This document shows, one piece after another, positions 38,129-46,724 of a DNA stretch of 64,000 nt (the first letter of the stretch is position 1; the number at the start of each line of letters is the position of its first letter). Made by a program: the position numbers and the translations under genes. Where the stretch lies: NCBI GenBank assembly GCA_963663385.2, contig CAXXXD010000002.1:32001-96000 (forward strand), read 5' to 3'. The notes beneath the pieces are model-generated. The model saw nothing but the letters and a program-made list of their open reading frames with translations. It had not been told where the DNA came from and searched no databases. Source of the stretch: Oceanispirochaeta sp. Its GTDB lineage: Bacteria > Spirochaetota > Spirochaetia > DSM-2461.

Positions 38129-39100
38129 ATGAGTGGAAAGATTGATATTGTGCTGCTCGCAGGATTTCTGGGGGCGGGAAAGACTACGGTGCTGAATGAG
38201 CTTATCCGCCAGTTTCCGGGTATTAAGCTGGGGATGCTGGTTAATGATTTCGGTGAAGTTCCTGTAGACGGTTCCCTTTTAAAGAGCGAGAATCCGGAAA
38301 TTCTGGAAGAGGGACATAAAATCTATGAAATAGGGAACGGTTCCATTTTCTGCTCCTGTCTGAAAGCGCCGTTTCTGTACGGGCTGCAGTATTTTGAAAA
38401 AGAGAAACCCGAACTCCTCTTCATCGAAGCTTCCGGGCTTTCCGATCCGTCCAGTATGGACAAGATTCTGAAGGAGCACGGGCTGGAGGGGGCTTTCCGG
38501 GTTAAAAGGGTTTTGACCCTGGTGGATCCTGTCCGCTATGTTCAGCTGGTACATGTTCTGGATGTCATAAGCCGGCAGATTATGGCGGCGGACAATCTTC
38601 TGATTAATAAAGCCGATCTGGTTACAGATGAGGAACTGAAAAAGGTCGAAGAGATGGTTCGGGAACTTAACCGGGAGGTGCCGATTCAGAAGGGTTCTTT
38701 CGGGCAGTTTGATTACTCTTTTCTCCGTGAAGAGGACAGGATGCACCGGATGGCGGATCGGGAGAGCTGCAATACCCCCGATACCAGACCGGCCAGCCTG
38801 TTTCTGGAAGGTTCTCTTCTGAATGAAAAGGTGCTGCTGGACTTTTTGAACTCCATAAAAGATGAAGTTTACCGCTTAAAGGGATTCTGGGAACTGGAGG
38901 GCGGGATGCGCTATGTTTCCGATACGGGACGGGGCTTCAGTATCACTCCTGCGGAGAAAAGCGGGATCAGGTCGGGTCTGACAGTGCTCTGTCCTCCCGC
39001 AAACGCGGAAACCGTTCAGGCGGCCTGGCAGAGGTTCCGGGAAGATAAATTCAGGATGGTCGGCGGAGGCGGTATAAGCGGGGGGCTCGGGCTGCGGTGA
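38129..39100 (+). CDS. COG0523/CobW-family GTPase metallochaperone
   Basis: GFLGAGKTT, NDFG, GSIFCSC, IEASG and NKAD; AGGAG SD before 38129. Confidence 0.9.
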   Translation: MSGKIDIVLLAGFLGAGKTTVLNELIRQFPGIKLGMLVNDFGEVPVDGSLLKSENPEILEEGHKIYEIGNGSIFCSCLKAPFLYGLQYFEKEKPELLFIEASGLSDPSSMDKILKEHGLEGAFRVKRVLTLVDPVRYVQLVHVLDVISRQIMAADNLLINKADLVTDEELKKVEEMVRELNREVPIQKGSFGQFDYSFLREEDRMHRMADRESCNTPDTRPASLFLEGSLLNEKVLLDFLNSIKDEVYRLKGFWELEGGMRYVSDTGRGFSITPAEKSGIRSGLTVLCPPANAETVQAAWQRFREDKFRMVGGGGISGGLGLR

Positions 39101-39111
39101 GGGTATCTGCT

Positions 39112-39450
39112 CTAAAGGAGCTTTGACCCTAAATCCACATCTTTATCCGGGACTGCTAAAACGACATTATTATCAGAGTTATAAAAACCGGTTACCAGAC
39201 ATTCCGACTGCATGTTGGCTATCTGCTTATCAGGGAAATTGACAACGGCAATGATTGTTTTTCCCAGCAGGTCTTCTGGTGAGTACAGGTCTGTTATCTG
39301 ACTGCTGGTTTTTTTAATTCCTATGTCTCTGCCAAAATCAATCTGCAGCTTATAGGCCGGTTTTCTGGCTTCCCTGAAAACCTCGGCTTTGATGATCTTT
39401 CCTGCCCTTAATTCTACTTTTTCATAATCATCCCATGTGATTGTGTCCAT
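39112..39450 (-). CDS. csaA: tRNA-binding protein / CsaA chaperone
   Basis: ARKPAYKLQIDFG and AVVNFPDKQIA; start moved to MDTITWDD. Confidence 0.85.
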   Translation of the reverse strand: MDTITWDDYEKVELRAGKIIKAEVFREARKPAYKLQIDFGRDIGIKKTSSQITDLYSPEDLLGKTIIAVVNFPDKQIANMQSECLVTGFYNSDNNVVLAVPDKDVDLGSKLL

Positions 39451-39716
39451 AGTTGCAACCTCTGTTTTGTTTCCCAAATATTGCTCAATTCCCATGTGGT
39501 GGAAGGGAATTTCTGCTTCCAAACGGTGTATTGCGGTGTGTCGAGTGAACTTTAAATATAAAGTTCTTTAGGATTTCAATCTGCTCTATCAGGTTTTTCA
39601 TTGTATCAAAATTTCTATTGACAATGTATTTAATAATGTAATATTCCTTAAATTTTAGAAGTACCTAAATCGAGATAGTGGGCAATATAAAAATAATGAT
39701 TTTATTATTCTACAAG

Positions 39717-40389
39717 TGAATGTGCTATACTTTGGAATACTCCATCAGGACAACCTGGAGGGTTGCTGATGGACCCCATTTCTGAATGTGCTATACTCCT
39801 TACTTCAATCCGAATTATTTCACCGGTGTTGCGGATGGACCCCATTTCTGAATGTGCTATACTGAGATATGGCAAGATACTACATATTCTGTTGTTGCGG
39901 ATGGACCCCATTTCTGAATGTGCTATACTCTGAATATAGTTCCATATCGATGGGTAATAGTTGCGGATGGACCCCATTTCTGAATGTGCTATACTAGGTT
40001 TCAATTCGAAAAGAACGTTAAGCCTGTTGCGGATGGACCCCATTTCTGAATGTGCTATACTAGTGTCACAGCTTCTACGTCTCAGGTTAAGGTTGCGGAT
40101 GGACCCCATTTCTGAATGTGCTATACTCAGCCAAAAGAAATGGTATAACCAATCAAGTTGCGGATGGACCCCATTTCTGAATGTGCTATACTTCTTTTTC
40201 ATGTGTTACCTCTTTAATTATAGTTGCGGATGGACCCCATTTCTGAATGTGCTATACTATCTTTGATAACCGGGATAACATATAGATTGTTGCGGATGGA
40301 CCCCATTTCTGAATGTGCTATACTTCGGCTGGATTAGTACCTATTAACGTTCTGTTGCGGATGGACCCCATTTCTGAATGTGCTATACT
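39717..40389 (+). CRISPR. Type II-C CRISPR array: 10 full repeats, 1 truncated repeat, 10 spacers of 29-30 nt
   Basis: Repeat GTTGCGGATGGACCCCATTTCTGAATGTGCTATACT at 39762 (G6T variant), 39828, 39894, 39960, 40026, 40092, 40157, 40223, 40289 and 40354; a 15-nt 3' remnant at 39717-39731. Confidence 0.98.
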
Positions 40390-40458
40390 AGTGATTGTGT
40401 AACTCCATAACCGGAAAGGCTTTGGAGTGCATAATTGCAAATAAAAAAGAGGTGGAAA

Positions 40459-40788
40459 TCAGAAAAGCAGGAACTGTGCATTTGTTTTTTTCTGCTTTTG
40501 GAACTCTTTTCCATAGAAAGAAACGATATTTTCATATTGCTTGTCTGTAATTGAAATAATATCAACCTTTCCTCCCTTAGGAAGAGCATCCTCCACCATT
40601 TCAACAATGGTTTTCAATGCATCTTTTCCTGATAACAATCTATAGTATACCGAATATTGACTCATATGGAAACCGTTGTCCAGCAAGAACTTACGAAATT
40701 CTGTTGCTTCTTTTCTCTGCTTCTGTTCAACCACTGGTAAATCAAATAATACTATTGCCCACATCATCCTGTACCCGTTCAAAAACAT
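40459..40788 (-). CDS. cas2: CRISPR-associated Cas2
   Basis: VLFDLPV and GFHMSQYSVY; next to the array. Confidence 0.96.
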   Translation of the reverse strand: MFLNGYRMMWAIVLFDLPVVEQKQRKEATEFRKFLLDNGFHMSQYSVYYRLLSGKDALKTIVEMVEDALPKGGKVDIISITDKQYENIVSFYGKEFQKQKKTNAQFLLF

Positions 40789-41705
40789 AATTCCACCAAC
40801 TCGTTTAACTCCCCGTCTCCCGGAAAGGGAGGAATAATCAATTCGTTGCTTTTTTCTTTAAAACTCCTGACAACGGATAGGCATAAATCTTCCAATGCTT
40901 TAATCAGGGGCGTTTTCCCTTTCAGGGAATCCAGATCCAGCCAGCAGAGCTGTATAATTTTCTTTTTGTTTGCCGGTATAAGGCTGAAATCGTCGTATTT
41001 AGAAATTTCCACAGCAGCAATATCAAACAGTGGTCTGTATATCTCCATAAGATCATCTACCAGACACATATTGTTTGACCTGTTTATATGATGGATACCC
41101 AGAGCAGGTTGTAAACCGCAGGAACAGACCGCACGTGCTGTCATTCCTCTCAGTACTCCATATCCGTAATTTAATAAGGAATTAATCCCCGGCTCGTTTA
41201 TATCCCTTTTGAAGGTTCCTTCAAACAGGCTTTTCCAATACACCCGAGCGGCATAGGCTTCGTTATTTTCCTTATCACCGGATTTAACCTGTTCTGCAAT
41301 ATGGAGTAAGGTTTTGTAATCATCTTTCTTATAGAAGCTTAGTATCGCGGCCTGATTCCGGATTTTTGTCTGAACGATTATTTTCCACATCTGCTTTTTT
41401 AAAGGCAGAGACGCATCAATTTGATCCAGTAATCTTCCGGTATATTCAAAGTGGGAGCTGTAAGGCAGGAGAAATGATGCGGGATTGTAGTTTTTGCCGC
41501 ATAGTATGGCCATGCCGCCCCGCTCATTTATACGTGTCAGTATCTCCTTTGAGAAACTAACACCTCTGGCTGTAACAAGAAGAACGGCAATATCGTCCAG
41601 CGGCACTTCGGCCAGTTTTTCCCTGGCTTTGGATATCTTTAAAAATCCTCTGTAAGCGGATAAATATGTCCCTTCTTCCGAGATTTCAACGACTTGTCTG
41701 AGCAT
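40779..41705 (-). CDS. cas1: CRISPR-associated Cas1 (type II)
   Basis: VPLDDIA, EAYAARVYW, NSLLNYGYGVLR, LGIHH and DDLMEIYRP. Confidence 0.97.
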   Translation of the reverse strand: MLRQVVEISEEGTYLSAYRGFLKISKAREKLAEVPLDDIAVLLVTARGVSFSKEILTRINERGGMAILCGKNYNPASFLLPYSSHFEYTGRLLDQIDASLPLKKQMWKIIVQTKIRNQAAILSFYKKDDYKTLLHIAEQVKSGDKENNEAYAARVYWKSLFEGTFKRDINEPGINSLLNYGYGVLRGMTARAVCSCGLQPALGIHHINRSNNMCLVDDLMEIYRPLFDIAAVEISKYDDFSLIPANKKKIIQLCWLDLDSLKGKTPLIKALEDLCLSVVRSFKEKSNELIIPPFPGDGELNELVELCF

Positions 41706-41712
41706 AGTCTAC

Positions 41713-44700
41713 TCATGTCCTTTCCCTCCCGTCTGCTGTGATATGAACTTTCGAAACCAGATAAGTTTGAAAAACTTGGTTTATCGAATTCCAATTTTGA
41801 CCTTTCTGTGGCTTCCAAATATCATCTTTTATAATAATATTCGTATGTTCATTCCAATCTTTCAAGTTTGTTGCGTTAAAAACAGTTGAAAAATCAATTC
41901 TATTTGTTGTTGCAGCATATCCTTTGATTATAGAGTAATGTGTTTTATTTTCTTCATCGATAATTTTTACAATATCTTCTTTATATAAAGACATTATTTT
42001 CTTTGCTGCCGGATGTGGGCAAGGTGATTTGAATTTCTCATCCTGTGCTTGAACACGGTTTACAAAATACCCTTTATATTCTGTTTTTTTCTTATTCTTA
42101 TGCGGAGGAATGGCCCAGATATCTACATACAGATAATCATTAGGTAAATAGGCTTTATTCTTGTTCACAGAATTAATTCGTACAGCGTTTTCCGTATTAT
42201 CCGGCATTATTCGTACTCGGCGAATTTTGTGTTTTTCTCCAAACAGCTGTAAAGCTTCCTGCAGCATTTTGGCATTCAGTTCAGATACTTGTATTTCGTT
42301 ATAAATTTTCAACTTGATCTCTTCGTCCCAGATTCTGGCAACCTCTGTTGCTTTCAGATCTTTTAAAGCCTTACGTGTAACATAAGTCGGAACCAGACAG
42401 ATTGGACCTTCCGCATCATTATCGGAATGCCATTTTTCAGCCATTATTTTTCTGGCTTTATTTATTCCTAGTTCCCGGACATAATCCTTGAACTCTCTCT
42501 TAAGGGAACGGCTTTCAATCTGATTAATATCATCAATAGTTTTGAATTTATCGAATCCTCTTCTTGTCTGTTTTAACTTCATACCAAGGGCTGTCTCATT
42601 AAAAAGCTTACCCTGTCTACCATGATCCAGCTTATGTGAGACGATGATCTTTTTTACCTGTTCAGTTACATCCCTCACCAGAAAGGGACTTGCAGGTACG
42701 ATTATATCTTCCGGTCTTTGTAGAATTGCCTCATTGGCAAGTCGTTTAATCGTACTCCTGTCTGTTAACGCAATTACAAGGGCATCAATACTGTGATGCC
42801 TATGATCCGTTCTGTTTTTGTGCCAGTTGCTGCGATGATTACTTAATATCGTGTTATATCCCCAGCGAGCCCGCAGCATGGCAGTCTGGCCGCCTTTTAT
42901 TGTCCAGATCTTGTTATAAATACAAATGGCAGAAAGGTATTCTTTTGATTTTCTTGACAGATAGGCATTATCTGTAAGCTGCCGGTCCATAAATCCGGCT
43001 TTTTCTTCCCACTCATGTAAAGCTCCTTTCAAAAAGAATTTGCTTTTGTTATTGGGTAGATGGGAGGAGCGCTCTACTATTTTATCGTAGTTAAAATCAT
43101 CGTGACAGGCTGAAAAAGCTTCATCTGGTGTACGATTTCCCTTAAAAGCATTGCATCGTTTATGGGACACCGTCAGATTATTCATACTGTTCATCAGAGT
43201 CCTTGAGTAGGGTAGTATATGTTCGATTTCAACATCCGGACTGAACAGTTGAGAAGCACTTATAGGTTTGCCGCAGTAAACACATCTGCGAGTAACTCCC
43301 TCAGGGGCCAGTTCTTCCCAGAGTTTGTATTTCTTTATATCCCAGGAACTGGGATGCCCTATTCCTAATGATTTCAGTTGATTATAGATTCGATCATTAT
43401 CAAGTTTATTCTTTTTCTGCCTGTTGAAAGCATCCATTTTATTGTCCCGGCTCATTTTTAATTCCCTGGACAATTCAAGCACTATTTCATCCGGGTTTCC
43501 AAAACGTTCAATCAGGCAATTTACCAGCTTCCGAAGCTGATTAAGGGCTATATGAACCGTTGGATTTCCAATTTTTCCATAGAGAATTTCGGGATCTCTA
43601 CTAAGGGATTCCGGTTTCCCGCCAATAGTACTGCCTTTCAGAATCTCACCATAATAGGGAAGTCGTTTCTTCAACTCTTCTTTGTTTCTGAAATCACTGT
43701 GATGAAGCCCCATCATTTTAACTGCTTCATGATAAGGCAGGCCTTTTTTCTCCATAATGAGGGAGCATTCATTCATAAATTCTTTTGATAAATTTGTTGT
43801 TCCGGAAGAGAATGTCTGGTTCAAAATTTCTTCAACCATATCTGAATCAAGATTGTACTCACTAAGAAAGTTTTTAATCGGTTCATCAGAATTACTTTCA
43901 ATGAGGAGCTCGATTAACTCATCCTGTTTTTCAAGTGCAATATCATCCCAGTATTTACCCATCACTTTTCGCATTGAAAAGGCGGTTGAGTTACCGTTTA
44001 GTTTTTCATCTGCTCTTTTTTCAAGGTTGAAACGGTTATCTACTTTCAGTAAAGACCGAATTTTATTAAAGGCAACTGTTTTGGCCTTATCAAGAGCTTG
44101 AATAAGGATCCTTCTCTGTCCATTAGTTAACCTGGTTTTGCTGCCATCACTATTTATCAGTTCAAGGTTATTCACTTCCTGAAGTATTCTGAATCGATGA
44201 CTGACAGGAAGGGCTTTATGGGCTCTCTCCTTATCAATATAAAACTGACACTTTCCTCTTTCCTGTGGTTTTAATGGTCTTTGAAAGAATATAATATCAT
44301 AGAGCAGATCCCAATCCAGTTGAGGATAGGAAGGTTCCTGAATATTCCGCAGAGAAAGGAATTCCTCTTCATATAATTTACGATCAGGATACTGATTTGA
44401 TATTTCAGGGCGGAATCGTATCCCTTTGCACTTCCCATCAACTCCCAGACTGTGAAACTCTTCTCTTTTCTTATATAAAAACTCGCCAAATGTTCTAGCA
44501 TCTGATTCATCAAGAGCATTCTGGAGATTCGATATCTTCAGGTAGTTCCCTTTGGTTTCAGCATCACCAGACTTTTCTTCTTTCCGGTTGCTTTTGAAAC
44601 CTCTTCTTTTGGCCAAATGAGCAATTGCACGGCATAATTCCTGACCATTCAATACTCTGTCCAGACCCTCTTTCCTGACTAAATAGGGATCTATACGTTT

Positions 44701-44991
44701 TATCTGTGCAGATTCATCTTGATCAATTATTCCAGAGCTAATAAAGAAACCATATACTTTTCTTATTTGTCGGTTTCTTCTGTCTCTTCTCTTTCGCATC
44801 TGACGGGCATTTCGTCTTTGAACGGCTAAGGAATCTCCGACACGTCCCTCTGCAGCCGGTTCTCTTCCATCAGAAAAAATTCTGACTCCCATATCCAATA
44901 TTTCAAGAGGTATACTGTCATCGGTTATTTTTAGAGCACACCATCCGATTGAATTCGTTCCAAGATCCAAGCCCAAGCGCCATTTATCCAT
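41713..44991 (-). CDS. cas9: Type II-C Cas9, about 1092 aa
   Basis: RuvC-I GLDLGTNSIGW, Arg-rich bridge helix, RuvC-II VLELSRE, HNH EIEHILPYS..N..KGNRTP, RuvC-III HHSIDA; no csn2 or cas4; GAGG SD favours ATG 44991. Confidence 0.98.
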   Translation of the reverse strand: MDKWRLGLDLGTNSIGWCALKITDDSIPLEILDMGVRIFSDGREPAAEGRVGDSLAVQRRNARQMRKRRDRRNRQIRKVYGFFISSGIIDQDESAQIKRIDPYLVRKEGLDRVLNGQELCRAIAHLAKRRGFKSNRKEEKSGDAETKGNYLKISNLQNALDESDARTFGEFLYKKREEFHSLGVDGKCKGIRFRPEISNQYPDRKLYEEEFLSLRNIQEPSYPQLDWDLLYDIIFFQRPLKPQERGKCQFYIDKERAHKALPVSHRFRILQEVNNLELINSDGSKTRLTNGQRRILIQALDKAKTVAFNKIRSLLKVDNRFNLEKRADEKLNGNSTAFSMRKVMGKYWDDIALEKQDELIELLIESNSDEPIKNFLSEYNLDSDMVEEILNQTFSSGTTNLSKEFMNECSLIMEKKGLPYHEAVKMMGLHHSDFRNKEELKKRLPYYGEILKGSTIGGKPESLSRDPEILYGKIGNPTVHIALNQLRKLVNCLIERFGNPDEIVLELSRELKMSRDNKMDAFNRQKKNKLDNDRIYNQLKSLGIGHPSSWDIKKYKLWEELAPEGVTRRCVYCGKPISASQLFSPDVEIEHILPYSRTLMNSMNNLTVSHKRCNAFKGNRTPDEAFSACHDDFNYDKIVERSSHLPNNKSKFFLKGALHEWEEKAGFMDRQLTDNAYLSRKSKEYLSAICIYNKIWTIKGGQTAMLRARWGYNTILSNHRSNWHKNRTDHRHHSIDALVIALTDRSTIKRLANEAILQRPEDIIVPASPFLVRDVTEQVKKIIVSHKLDHGRQGKLFNETALGMKLKQTRRGFDKFKTIDDINQIESRSLKREFKDYVRELGINKARKIMAEKWHSDNDAEGPICLVPTYVTRKALKDLKATEVARIWDEEIKLKIYNEIQVSELNAKMLQEALQLFGEKHKIRRVRIMPDNTENAVRINSVNKNKAYLPNDYLYVDIWAIPPHKNKKKTEYKGYFVNRVQAQDEKFKSPCPHPAAKKIMSLYKEDIVKIIDEENKTHYSIIKGYAATTNRIDFSTVFNATNLKDWNEHTNIIIKDDIWKPQKGQNWNSINQVFQTYLVSKVHITADGRERT

Positions 44992-45025
44992 ACTCACCTC
45001 TTGTTTTTATAGTAATCAGTGAGTT

Positions 45026-45054
45026 ATTTTAAACCTGTTTTAATTGACAATCAA
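45026..45054 (-). promoter_or_regulatory. Putative cas9 operon promoter
   Basis: TTGATT-N17-TAAAAT on the minus strand. Confidence 0.6.
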
Positions 45055-45072
45055 ATAGTAAACGAATAAGAT
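45044..45072 (+). promoter_or_regulatory. tracrRNA promoter
   Basis: TTGACA-N17-TAAGAT ending 6 nt before the anti-repeat. Confidence 0.8.
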
Positions 45073-45078
45073 TAAATC

Positions 45079-45188
45079 AGCACATTTGGAAATGCGGTTC
45101 ATCCGCTAACAAGGCGAACCCGTTAGGGCACCGCCACAAAATGCACAGTTAACTGTGGAAAAGGCCTCCTGCGGGAGGTCTTTTTTTT
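45079..45188 (+). ncRNA. tracrRNA (about 110 nt)
   Basis: Anti-repeat AGCACATTTGGAAATGCGGTTCATCCGCTAAC (45079-45110), AAGGC nexus-like start, hairpins, terminator GGCCTCC-GGAGGTC-T8. Confidence 0.92.
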
Positions 45189-45202
45189 ATTAAAAGGATT
45201 AC

Positions 45203-45697
45203 TTAAAACACATACCTCACCCCAAAGGATGAGGCCAGATAAAAACCGAAATCATTCATAAACTGCAGCCCGGGAGTAGCCTCGATATAGAGGTTCAGGG
45301 GCACTTCATCAAACGTATACTCCCAGCGGACTGTGGCGCCTGCAGCCATACTGAACTCGTCATCAAAATCGCAGTATAGAGCCGGTCCCATAGAGAGGGG
45401 GAAAATTTCATCTCCCATATTTATATTCACAATGGTAAACAGAAGATTGGCACCCATGGCAAAATCACTATTGAAGTGGGTTCCAGCAAAAGCATTGGCT
45501 TCCAGATAGTTGGCCAGCCTGTAGCCGAATGTTAAGCCGAAGGGGTAGCCGATAGCCAATCCGGCTTTTGCCCTGCCTTCCAGATCCTCTGTGCTGAGGC
45601 TGAGTTCCGGTATCTCTTTATCTTCGTAGCGATTGTCGTTGGCAAACAGCCCTGCCGTCAGGATAAAAAGAAAAATCAGTATGAGAATCTTCTTCAT
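45203..45697 (-). CDS. Predicted small outer-membrane beta-barrel protein
   Basis: Signal peptide MKKILIL; GLAIGYPFGLT; C-terminal GVRYVF. Confidence 0.7.
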   Translation of the reverse strand: MKKILILIFLFILTAGLFANDNRYEDKEIPELSLSTEDLEGRAKAGLAIGYPFGLTFGYRLANYLEANAFAGTHFNSDFAMGANLLFTIVNINMGDEIFPLSMGPALYCDFDDEFSMAAGATVRWEYTFDEVPLNLYIEATPGLQFMNDFGFYLASSFGVRYVF

Positions 45698-45767
45698 TAT
45701 GTGATCTCCCGTTAAATATTCAAAGCATCCGCTTATGCAATGCACCGGTTTATAATATAATAAATTT

Positions 45768-46724
45768 ATGGAAAAAGTCATCCTGATCTTCATAGACGGT
45801 GTCGGAATCGGAGCCGACGACCGCACGCGGAACCCCGTTATAGACCTCTTTAAGGGAATTGATTCCGGGATTCGGCTGTGCGAAGGATCTTTTCCCAGTG
45901 AATTCCCCGGTGGATACGGTTTTCCACTTGATGCCTGCCTGGGGGTGGATGGGATTCCCCAGTCCGCTACAGGCCAATCTTCCCTGTATACGGGAGTAAA
46001 TGCCCAGGCTTATCTGGGCTACCACCTGAATGCCATGCCCAACGATGCGCTAATCCATCTGTTGTGTAGGGAAAGTCTGCCCGTCCATATGAAACGGAAC
46101 GGGATCCGCTCACGGAATGCCAATCTCCACAGTTCGGCCTTTTTCGGGCAAAGGAGGAGCGGGCACAGGAATCGCTTCCCCGTTTCCACAATTATGACTT
46201 TTGCCGGAAAGACATCCTTTGTTTTTGAAAAGGAGTATCGGAAGGGGCAGGGTGTTTATATGGATATTACGGGAAAACTGATGCGGGAGAGAGGCTTTGA
46301 TATCCCTCTGATTACCCCCCTGGACGCGGCGGAGCGTTTATGCCGGATGACAGGGAATGAGGATTTTATCTACTTTGAGTATTTCCTGACCGACCGCTGG
46401 GGGCATAAACGGAACCGGGAAATTCTGGATTCCTGCCTGGACGACCTTATCCCCTTTCTGGGCGAATTAAGTGGTTTGACCCGGGAAAACAATATTCATC
46501 TGCTTGTATGCAGTGATCATGGCAATGCCGAAGATTTTGATACAGGCGATCATACCAGGAACCCCGTGCCATTCCTCTATATCCCGTCTTTCTGTTATCC
46601 TGCAGAAAAACGGGACGCCCTGCTGAAAAATCCCCCTGAAAAGATAACGGATGTCTGCAATATGGTTAAAAACATCTATAATATTAAAATAGATAACAAT
46701 ATAAAAATCCGGGAGAAGAAATAG
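45768..46724 (+). CDS. Metalloenzyme (phosphoglycerate mutase/phosphopentomutase-like)
   Basis: FIDGVGIG, PQSATGQ, DRWGH, SDHGN and HTRNPVP. Confidence 0.85.
   Translation: MEKVILIFIDGVGIGADDRTRNPVIDLFKGIDSGIRLCEGSFPSEFPGGYGFPLDACLGVDGIPQSATGQSSLYTGVNAQAYLGYHLNAMPNDALIHLLCRESLPVHMKRNGIRSRNANLHSSAFFGQRRSGHRNRFPVSTIMTFAGKTSFVFEKEYRKGQGVYMDITGKLMRERGFDIPLITPLDAAERLCRMTGNEDFIYFEYFLTDRWGHKRNREILDSCLDDLIPFLGELSGLTRENNIHLLVCSDHGNAEDFDTGDHTRNPVPFLYIPSFCYPAEKRDALLKNPPEKITDVCNMVKNIYNIKIDNNIKIREKK

What the first reader, a model, noticed from the sequence alone, without database searches (positions are those of the whole stretch)
41713..45188. Compact, apparently intact II-C Cas9 with a fully readable tracrRNA
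Seen: about 1092 aa with RuvC and HNH catalytic motifs present, and a tracrRNA from promoter to terminator that pairs over 31 repeat positions with three G-U pairs, one C-C mismatch and a 1-nt bulge. The locus is visibly more AT-rich than its flanks. Inference: a horizontally acquired, probably uncharacterised orthologue; an sgRNA can be designed directly, and I cannot infer the PAM by eye.
Basis: partly seen in the sequence, partly recalled or inferred. Interest (0 to 1): 0.72.

Follow-up and report, generated by a model that had tools for sequence, protein, structure and literature searches.

The report
Spirochaete Cas9 with doubled wedge module
This is an intact, untested bacterial CRISPR-Cas9 immune locus of a well-known compact type, likely acquired sideways, whose Cas9 carries two copies of a small "wedge" unit that occurs once in solved Cas9s such as GeoCas9 and that is predicted to give it an extra grip on its guide RNA or target DNA.

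Summary
cas9 (41713-44991, minus strand, 1092 aa) has all RuvC and HNH catalytic residues and is followed by cas1, cas2 and a 36-nt-repeat array read the other way. The tracrRNA (about 45079-45188, plus strand) pairs with the repeat exactly as described. The island is 39% GC against 47-48% flanks; 0 of 10 congeners have a Cas9, and 8 show the empty site. It is a standard type II-C system. The tracrRNA type, including the 1-nt bulge, is common (117 of 127 related loci) and matches in-vitro-tested orthologues (Ghc1, Ghh1, Sdo). The closest full-length homologue is 58% identical; no characterised near-twin was found. New here: residues 806-868 and 871-928 are two copies of the helical WED module (profile probability 96%, controls at most 11%). 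Relatives have 0, 1, 2 or 3 copies, and the 2-copy form marks one mostly spirochaete branch. The module aligns with the GeoCas9 WED segment whose mutations speed DNA unwinding. The extra copy's function is untested. No protospacer was found, so the PAM stays unknown. Modest interest.

The parts
45044..45072 (+). Predicted sigma-70 promoter of the tracrRNA (TTGACA-17-TAAGAT); overlaps a weaker divergent match (45054-45026, minus) that may drive cas9
   Evidence: consensus match only
45079..45188 (+). tracrRNA: anti-repeat 45079-45110, extended nexus hairpin 45113-45135, hairpin 45144-45157, terminator hairpin and U8 to 45188
   Evidence: covariation of nexus base and terminator in 9 related tracrRNAs, 10 of 17 pairs with compensatory change
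41713..44991 (-). cas9, type II-C, 1092 aa, catalytic residues intact
42388..42576 (-). Extra, diverged WED helical module (Cas9 residues 806-868), set between the phosphate-lock loop and the canonical module
42208..42381 (-). Canonical WED helical module (Cas9 residues 871-928); the single-copy relatives' module aligns to GeoCas9 residues about 838-905
40779..41705 (-). cas1 (TIGR03639, type II), 308 aa
40459..40788 (-). cas2 (TIGR01573)
39717..40389 (+). CRISPR array: 9 exact 36-nt repeats (39828-40389), 1 repeat with one change (39762-39797), a 15-nt remnant (39717-39731), 10 spacers of 29-30 nt; each repeat ends in an extended -10-like TG-n-TATACT; decayed end away from cas2
39112..39450 (-). 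csaA-like tRNA-binding protein gene; absent from the same site in congeners, so part of the inserted segment or a separate insertion; not linked to cas9 in any other fetched locus

Best explanation
This is a complete type II-C CRISPR-Cas9 locus (tracrRNA, cas9, cas1, cas2, reversed array), likely a working immune system acquired horizontally, and its Cas9 carries two copies of the helical WED module, the extra one predicted to fold and likely adding a contact to the guide RNA scaffold or to DNA beside the PAM. Shown: gene set, catalytic residues, repeat:anti-repeat duplex, empty site in congeners, the duplication. Inferred from Neisseria-type II-C systems: each repeat's extended -10 box starts a short crRNA on the plus strand; it pairs with the tracrRNA, may be trimmed by RNase III, loads on Cas9, and HNH and RuvC cut PAM-flanked DNA; Cas1-Cas2 add spacers at the cas2-proximal end. 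Inferred and untested: copy 2 keeps the usual WED job of bridging the repeat:anti-repeat duplex and PAM-side DNA, and copy 1 extends that surface.
For: Family scores over cut-off for Cas9, Cas1, Cas2 and no csn2/cas4 between them. Duplex far beyond background. The array reads opposite to cas9 in all 18 related loci. RNase III gene present. No spacer matches the own genome beyond 16-17 nt outside the array, so no sign of self-targeting pressure. 0 of 10 congeners pass the Cas9 cut-off; cobW is followed by the omp-like gene without csaA or cas genes in 8 of 9 congener loci examined, the ninth being a csaA locus elsewhere. The window's Cas9 groups (FastTree support 100) with P0002-P0007, P0007 coming from another family (G241, 51% identical), not with same-family Cas9s at 36-41%. 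Duplication: segment between the DHG motif and the RRVR strand is 125-160 aa in 130, 75-100 aa in 21 and 40 aa or less in 94 of 249 homologues, 4 unclassed. hhalign copy1 vs copy2 96.3%, E 1.5e-9; 14 control comparisons at most 10.6%; repeated on independent alignments 94.7%. AlphaFold gives both copies the same strand-short helices-two helices pattern, 10-residue pLDDT means 87-96. On a tree of residues 1-788 only, 49 of 49 two-copy rows lie on one branch (97) with 3 one-copy rows. P0121 has three tandem copies, 39-43 of 55 residues alike, so the module duplicates as a unit. The single-copy profile aligns the module to GeoCas9 about 838-905, covering the iGeoCas9 positions 843 and 884, which PMC11658890 links to DNA unwinding (passages).
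Against: No RNA run, cleavage data or protospacer: activity and PAM are not shown. The alignment to GeoCas9 WED is weak on its own (independent E 0.08-0.11) and the bare module profile hits no solved Cas9. Copy 1 is only slightly basic (14 K+R, 11 D+E) and poorly conserved (no invariant column). 94 relatives lack the module altogether and three rows on the two-copy branch have one copy, so it is dispensable somewhere. The extended-nexus link (11 of 14 vs 4 of 16 and 7 of 90) is confounded by kinship. The tree is FastTree on 89 of 249 rows; IQ-TREE did not finish. No mobility gene or end repeat marks the island.
Confidence: 0.72

Rival explanations
1. Ordinary working II-C Cas9; the extra WED module is a real but near-neutral surface insertion inherited by a clade.
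For: Copy number varies 0-3 among relatives with the same tracrRNA type; copy 1 diverges fast; apparent losses on the two-copy branch.
Against: Kept in 49 of 52 classed rows of a deep branch whose members are often only about 40% identical, and predicted to be well folded.
Confidence: 0.2
2. The locus is intact in sequence but silent or inactive in this host (recent import, short array; the 71-repeat second array elsewhere in the genome does the work).
For: Only 10 spacers, no spacer variation seen in the pieces laid, unameliorated GC3 of 34% vs median 52%, a 71-repeat array on contig C1.
Against: No lesion in any part; nine identical repeats; promoters and terminator intact; same sequence in two studies.
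Confidence: 0.06
3. The two segments only look alike because both are generic amphipathic helices; there is no duplication.
For: Only 15-18% identity between the copies in the window's protein.
Against: Other helical regions of the same proteins score 10.6% or less; lengths step by about 50 aa; the same secondary-structure pattern; a plain triple repeat in P0121.
Confidence: 0.02

Closest known systems
Clade IX type II-C Cas9s tested in vitro by Gasiunas et al. 2020 (PMC7606464): Ghc1 (1038 aa, PAM HGCNGCR), Ghh1 (1094 aa), Sdo (1070 aa, NRRNTT), Msc (1044 aa, NNRRCC)
   Same: 36-nt repeats starting GUU(G/C/U), tracrRNAs with the same bulged U before AAC, then AAG-nexus, a CAC-type linker and a terminator; similar size and N-terminal motifs (supplement 7 rows).
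   Different: Not aligned directly: the stored cells are cut at 400 letters, so their identity and WED copy number could not be tested. A proxy with a Ghc1-like repeat (L013) is 37% identical and has one module. Their PAMs differ widely, so none transfers.
EHCas9 (bioRxiv 10.1101/2022.10.31.514646), 1070 aa II-C, sgRNA modelled on Sdo
   Same: Same locus plan (tracrRNA upstream, cas9-cas1-cas2, 36-bp repeats, array read like the tracrRNA) (passages).
   Different: Not compared by sequence; no WED doubling mentioned in the passages read.
GeoCas9/ThermoCas9 and Nme1/Nme2Cas9 (solved II-C structures)
   Same: Best PDB hits by sequence (E 1e-62 to 1e-48) and fold; WED module alignable in position.
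   Different: About 20-22% identical in structural alignments; one WED module in the GeoCas9 alignment; their WED+PI spans about 240-260 residues against about 310 here.
Tde and Tpu Cas9 (Treponema denticola, T. putidum)
   Same: The spirochaete Cas9s named Treponema in that catalogue.
   Different: 1395 aa, clade III, different repeat and tracrRNA; not close relatives.

Membership tests
Type II-C CRISPR-Cas | cas9, cas1, cas2 only; no csn2 or cas4 | tested here: met
   ORFs and family scans of 36.6-54.6 kb
Type II-C CRISPR-Cas | Cas9 with RuvC I-III, bridge helix and HNH catalytic residues | tested here: met
   TIGR01865 556 bits vs cut-off 100; residues
Type II-C CRISPR-Cas | tracrRNA with anti-repeat, nexus and terminator | tested here: met
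   (computational)
Type II-C CRISPR-Cas (Neisseria-type arrays) | Array read opposite to cas genes with promoter in each repeat | tested here: inconclusive
   Orientation follows from the duplex; TG-n-TATACT in all 10 full repeats; start sites need RNA data
Type II-C CRISPR-Cas | PAM-dependent, guide-directed dsDNA cleavage | not testable with these tools
   No protospacer found
Type II-D (Cas9d) | NF049971 over cut-off | tested here: not met
   106.9 bits vs 375
Type II-A / II-B | csn2 or cas4 after cas2 | tested here: not met
   array follows cas2 directly
Gasiunas clade IX (Ghc1/Ghh1/Sdo/Msc group) | Repeat and tracrRNA architecture | tested here: met
   searches compared
Gasiunas clade IX (Ghc1/Ghh1/Sdo/Msc group) | Placement on a tree with those proteins | not tested
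   full sequences not available in the stored supplement
Loci with a cr-like/scaRNA regulator | Solitary repeat near cas9 with seed match to its promoter | tested here: not met
   87-nt cas9-tracr gap has no repeat copy; best spacer seed match 7 nt

The most novel reading that the evidence does not exclude
A large, untested, mostly spirochaete branch of compact II-C Cas9s has naturally doubled the WED module that limits DNA unwinding in GeoCas9 and Nme2Cas9. The second copy binds extra DNA backbone or the lengthened nexus hairpin and makes these enzymes faster or less PAM-bound than other II-C Cas9s, and WED copy number (0, 1, 2, 3) is a natural, modular dial that could be grafted.
Probability: 0.2. 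Interest if true: 0.7.

Novelty: new variant of a known kind. Interest (0 to 1): 0.36.

Why it matters
As one more II-C orthologue it matters little: thousands exist and several with this tracrRNA type have been tested. The doubled WED module gives it some value. Point mutations in that module raise GeoCas9 editing more than 100-fold by speeding unwinding (PMC11658890, passages), and here nature offers a 0/1/2/3-copy series with readable guides. One deletion in this protein would test what the module does, and the branch has no characterised member in the searches made.

Tried and rejected
PAM inference failed. The 10 spacers had no match beyond chance in the own genome, phages (6 records, all E about 8), plasmids (9 records, E about 7) or 401 class genomes (3 hits besides G000: 2 repeat matches, 1 at 88% over 33 nt; only 2 candidates per genome were scored, so sensitivity is low). 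Only 1 of 10 spacers (22-nt core) was scanned in viral contigs: 0 hits. No overlap beyond 10 nt with the 70 spacers of the second array. A 7-nt seed match of one spacer at the cas9/tracr promoter is at chance level. No RNA holder was listed; no new spacers were seen, but the array is poorly covered by contigs. Rfam: nothing. The search for related loci with the single protein found nothing. Module-only and WED+PI profiles hit no solved Cas9 by sequence. IQ-TREE did not finish; no AU test was run. No end repeat over 10 nt at the island borders. Motif searches in supplements 7 and 9 of PMC7606464 gave nothing because cells and files are cut; unseen parts may hold a tested two-module Cas9. Literature searches for a WED duplication or a characterised spirochaete II-C Cas9 listed no such paper; the library lacks most subscription papers and all patents. 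PMC3694421 was not held. DO1Cas9 (991 aa, passages) is not this protein. The search of earlier findings returned nothing.

Full report
1. Observation. The minus-strand frame from ATG 44991 to the stop at 41713 gives 1092 aa. It scores 556 bits on the Cas9 model TIGR01865 (cut-off 100), and the next two genes are cas1 (TIGR03639) and cas2. RuvC D9, E506, H733, D736 and HNH H591, N605, N614 match near-invariant columns in 249 aligned homologues. The anti-repeat 45079-45110 pairs 31 repeat positions with three G-U pairs, one C-C mismatch and one bulged U, at -46.2 kcal/mol against a best of -33.5 in 3000 random genome 45-mers. A TTGACA-17-TAAGAT match precedes it, and a nexus, a small hairpin and a terminator hairpin with U8 follow (the terminator scan did not list it). 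Contigs from two studies carry 40362-46500 with 0 and 1 differences.

2. The locus. Order: tracrRNA (plus), cas9-cas1-cas2 (minus), array. The array has nine exact 36-nt repeats, one with a single change and a remnant, with 10 spacers. Pairing with the tracrRNA fixes the crRNA on the plus strand, opposite to the cas genes, as in all 18 related loci. Each repeat ends in TG-n-TATACT. Transcription from promoters inside repeats is documented for other II-C systems (stated in a passage of bioRxiv 10.1101/2022.10.31.514646; the Neisseria details are recalled, the primary paper was not held). The decayed end lies away from cas2, so new spacers likely enter next to cas2. The genome has RNase III and a second array of 71 repeats on another contig (its type I-C look is recalled, not tested).

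3. Horizontal origin. The segment is 39.0% GC against 48.5% and 46.8%. None of 10 congeners passes the Cas9 cut-off (9 of them are at least 90% complete). In 8 of 9 congener loci examined, cobW is followed by the omp-like gene with no csaA or cas genes; the ninth was a csaA locus elsewhere. Six of 37 same-family genomes have a match, full-length ones 36-39% identical, while a genome of another family (G241) has a 51% identical Cas9, 60% Cas1 and a similar repeat. The tree groups the window with that set. A recent gain in this lineage is simpler than losses in ten congeners; the donor and vehicle are not identified. The host is likely a spirochaete, judged only from the names of Cas9 homologues; no marker gene was tested.

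4. Relatives. The best full-length homologue is 58% identical (P0002; 3718 proteins at E<=1e-50 among 7998 scored), and a 543-aa fragment is 77% identical (P0131). Named ones are Spirochaetales, Treponema and Sphaerochaeta MAG proteins. Solved II-C Cas9s are about 20% identical. The tracrRNA junction with the bulged U is found in 117 of 127 loci with enough upstream DNA and in the tested orthologues Ghc1, Ghh1 and Sdo (PMC7606464 supplement 7 rows). So the guide is of a known, workable type.

5. The unusual part. Between the phosphate-lock motif (DHG, 789) and the RRVR strand (927), 249 homologues fall in three length classes: 40 aa or less (94, mostly betaproteobacterial where named), 75-100 aa (21) and 125-160 aa (130, including the window); 4 were unclassed, three truncated and one chimeric. 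The set is biased to the query's nearest relatives. Profiles of residues 806-868 and 871-928 match at 96.3% (E 1.5e-9), 14 controls at most 10.6%. Copy 2 matches the single-copy module at 99.4%, copy 1 at 92.8% (94.7% on separate alignments). AlphaFold models show the same pattern twice with high confidence. On a FastTree of residues 1-788 (89 of 249 rows) all 49 two-copy rows sit on one branch with three one-copy rows; one gain with a few losses is the simplest reading, not tested by AU. A search of 1.84 billion representatives with the module profile gave 235 hits at E<=0.001. Of 144 new proteins, 99 had one module, 16 two by spacing (a few may be long single copies), 1 three, and 28 lacked the anchor, among them false hits. 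The three-copy protein P0121 has 55-aa tandem units 71-78% alike. A profile of single-copy relatives aligns the module to GeoCas9 about 838-905, and the iGeoCas9 changes at 843 and 884 fall in it (weak independent E, supported by position). PMC11658890 (passages) says this WED domain recognises the repeat:anti-repeat duplex and PAM-side DNA and sets unwinding speed.

6. How it likely works. Short crRNAs start inside the repeats, pair with the tracrRNA and guide Cas9 to cut PAM-flanked foreign DNA (inferred from II-C precedent; all parts present, activity not shown). Copy 2 likely does the normal WED job. Copy 1 is predicted to fold as an appended lobe and likely adds a nucleic-acid contact. 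One candidate is the longer nexus hairpin: 18 nt or more in 11 of 14 two-copy loci, 4 of 16 one-copy and 7 of 90 zero-copy loci where a nexus was found (of 20, 19 and 94). That link is confounded by kinship, and the nexus is not the part WED is reported to bind. The neutral-insertion rival remains open, since many relatives lack the module.

7. PAM. Not obtained; see Tried and rejected. Flanks in relatives disagree: CTGGGCCC for one protospacer of P0007's array and NNATT at the promoter targets of solitary repeats in three more distant loci. Neither transfers to this PI domain.

8. Verdict. A real, intact, horizontally gained II-C locus, ordinary in plan and guide, with no characterised near-twin found. 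The doubled WED module is a clade-level variant that I did not find described (subscription papers, patents and cut supplement cells were not seen). Novelty: new variant of a known kind. Interest 0.36.

Noticed in passing
L006, L105, L106: 200-270 nt upstream of cas9: 3 of 8 loci inspected have a solitary repeat between tracrRNA and cas9, read on the cas9 strand, whose 5' neighbour ends in 9-11 nt that match a site 96-140 nt upstream of the cas9 start, just before a TTGACA box. Guide and target vary together between loci and all three targets are followed by NNATT. This looks like scaRNA/cr-like autorepression of a II-C cas9 and would give that group's PAM. bioRxiv 10.1101/2023.03.03.530964 covers such elements; the term 'II-C' did not occur in its text. 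Absent from the window.
   Followed up: partly
P0121 (677-aa fragment), residues about 362-529: Cas9 with three tandem 55-aa WED modules, 39-43 of 55 residues alike; a recent expansion, apparently separate from the spirochaete doubling.
   Followed up: partly
L114:2459-7462: 1668-aa frame: Cas9 cut off after the WED module and continued by what reads like a GAF-histidine kinase-receiver protein (by eye); probably an assembly chimera.
   Followed up: no
G000 contig C1 340215-344938 (outside the window): Second CRISPR array, 71 exact 32-nt repeats; no spacer matches the genome beyond 19 nt.
   Followed up: partly
window 41978: Runs X3 and X6 read T>C, changing codon 1005 from Glu to Gly in the PI region. 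X3 also holds a 44.9-kb contig with a diverged cas9-cas1 locus.
   Followed up: no
L198 (G241:C57:11189-11219): The oldest spacer of G241's array matches its own assembly exactly, inside an 841-aa helicase-methyltransferase-like frame (by eye); 3' flank CTGGGCCC. The genome is 8% contaminated, so this may be an invader or a foreign contig.
   Followed up: partly
L010/L194 and L116, tracrRNA lower stem: The anti-repeat is interrupted near its 3' end by an inserted hairpin of about 15 nt, a tracrRNA variant within the two-module branch.
   Followed up: no
window 39100-45203: The cobW-omp gap is a variable site: about 50-120 nt in three congeners and about 1.1 kb in five.
   Followed up: partly
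window 45203-45700: Conserved, roughly 160-aa protein with a signal-peptide-like start and C-terminal Phe, no Pfam or NCBIfam hit; 48-69% identical in congeners. Called 'omp-like' here by eye only.
   Followed up: no
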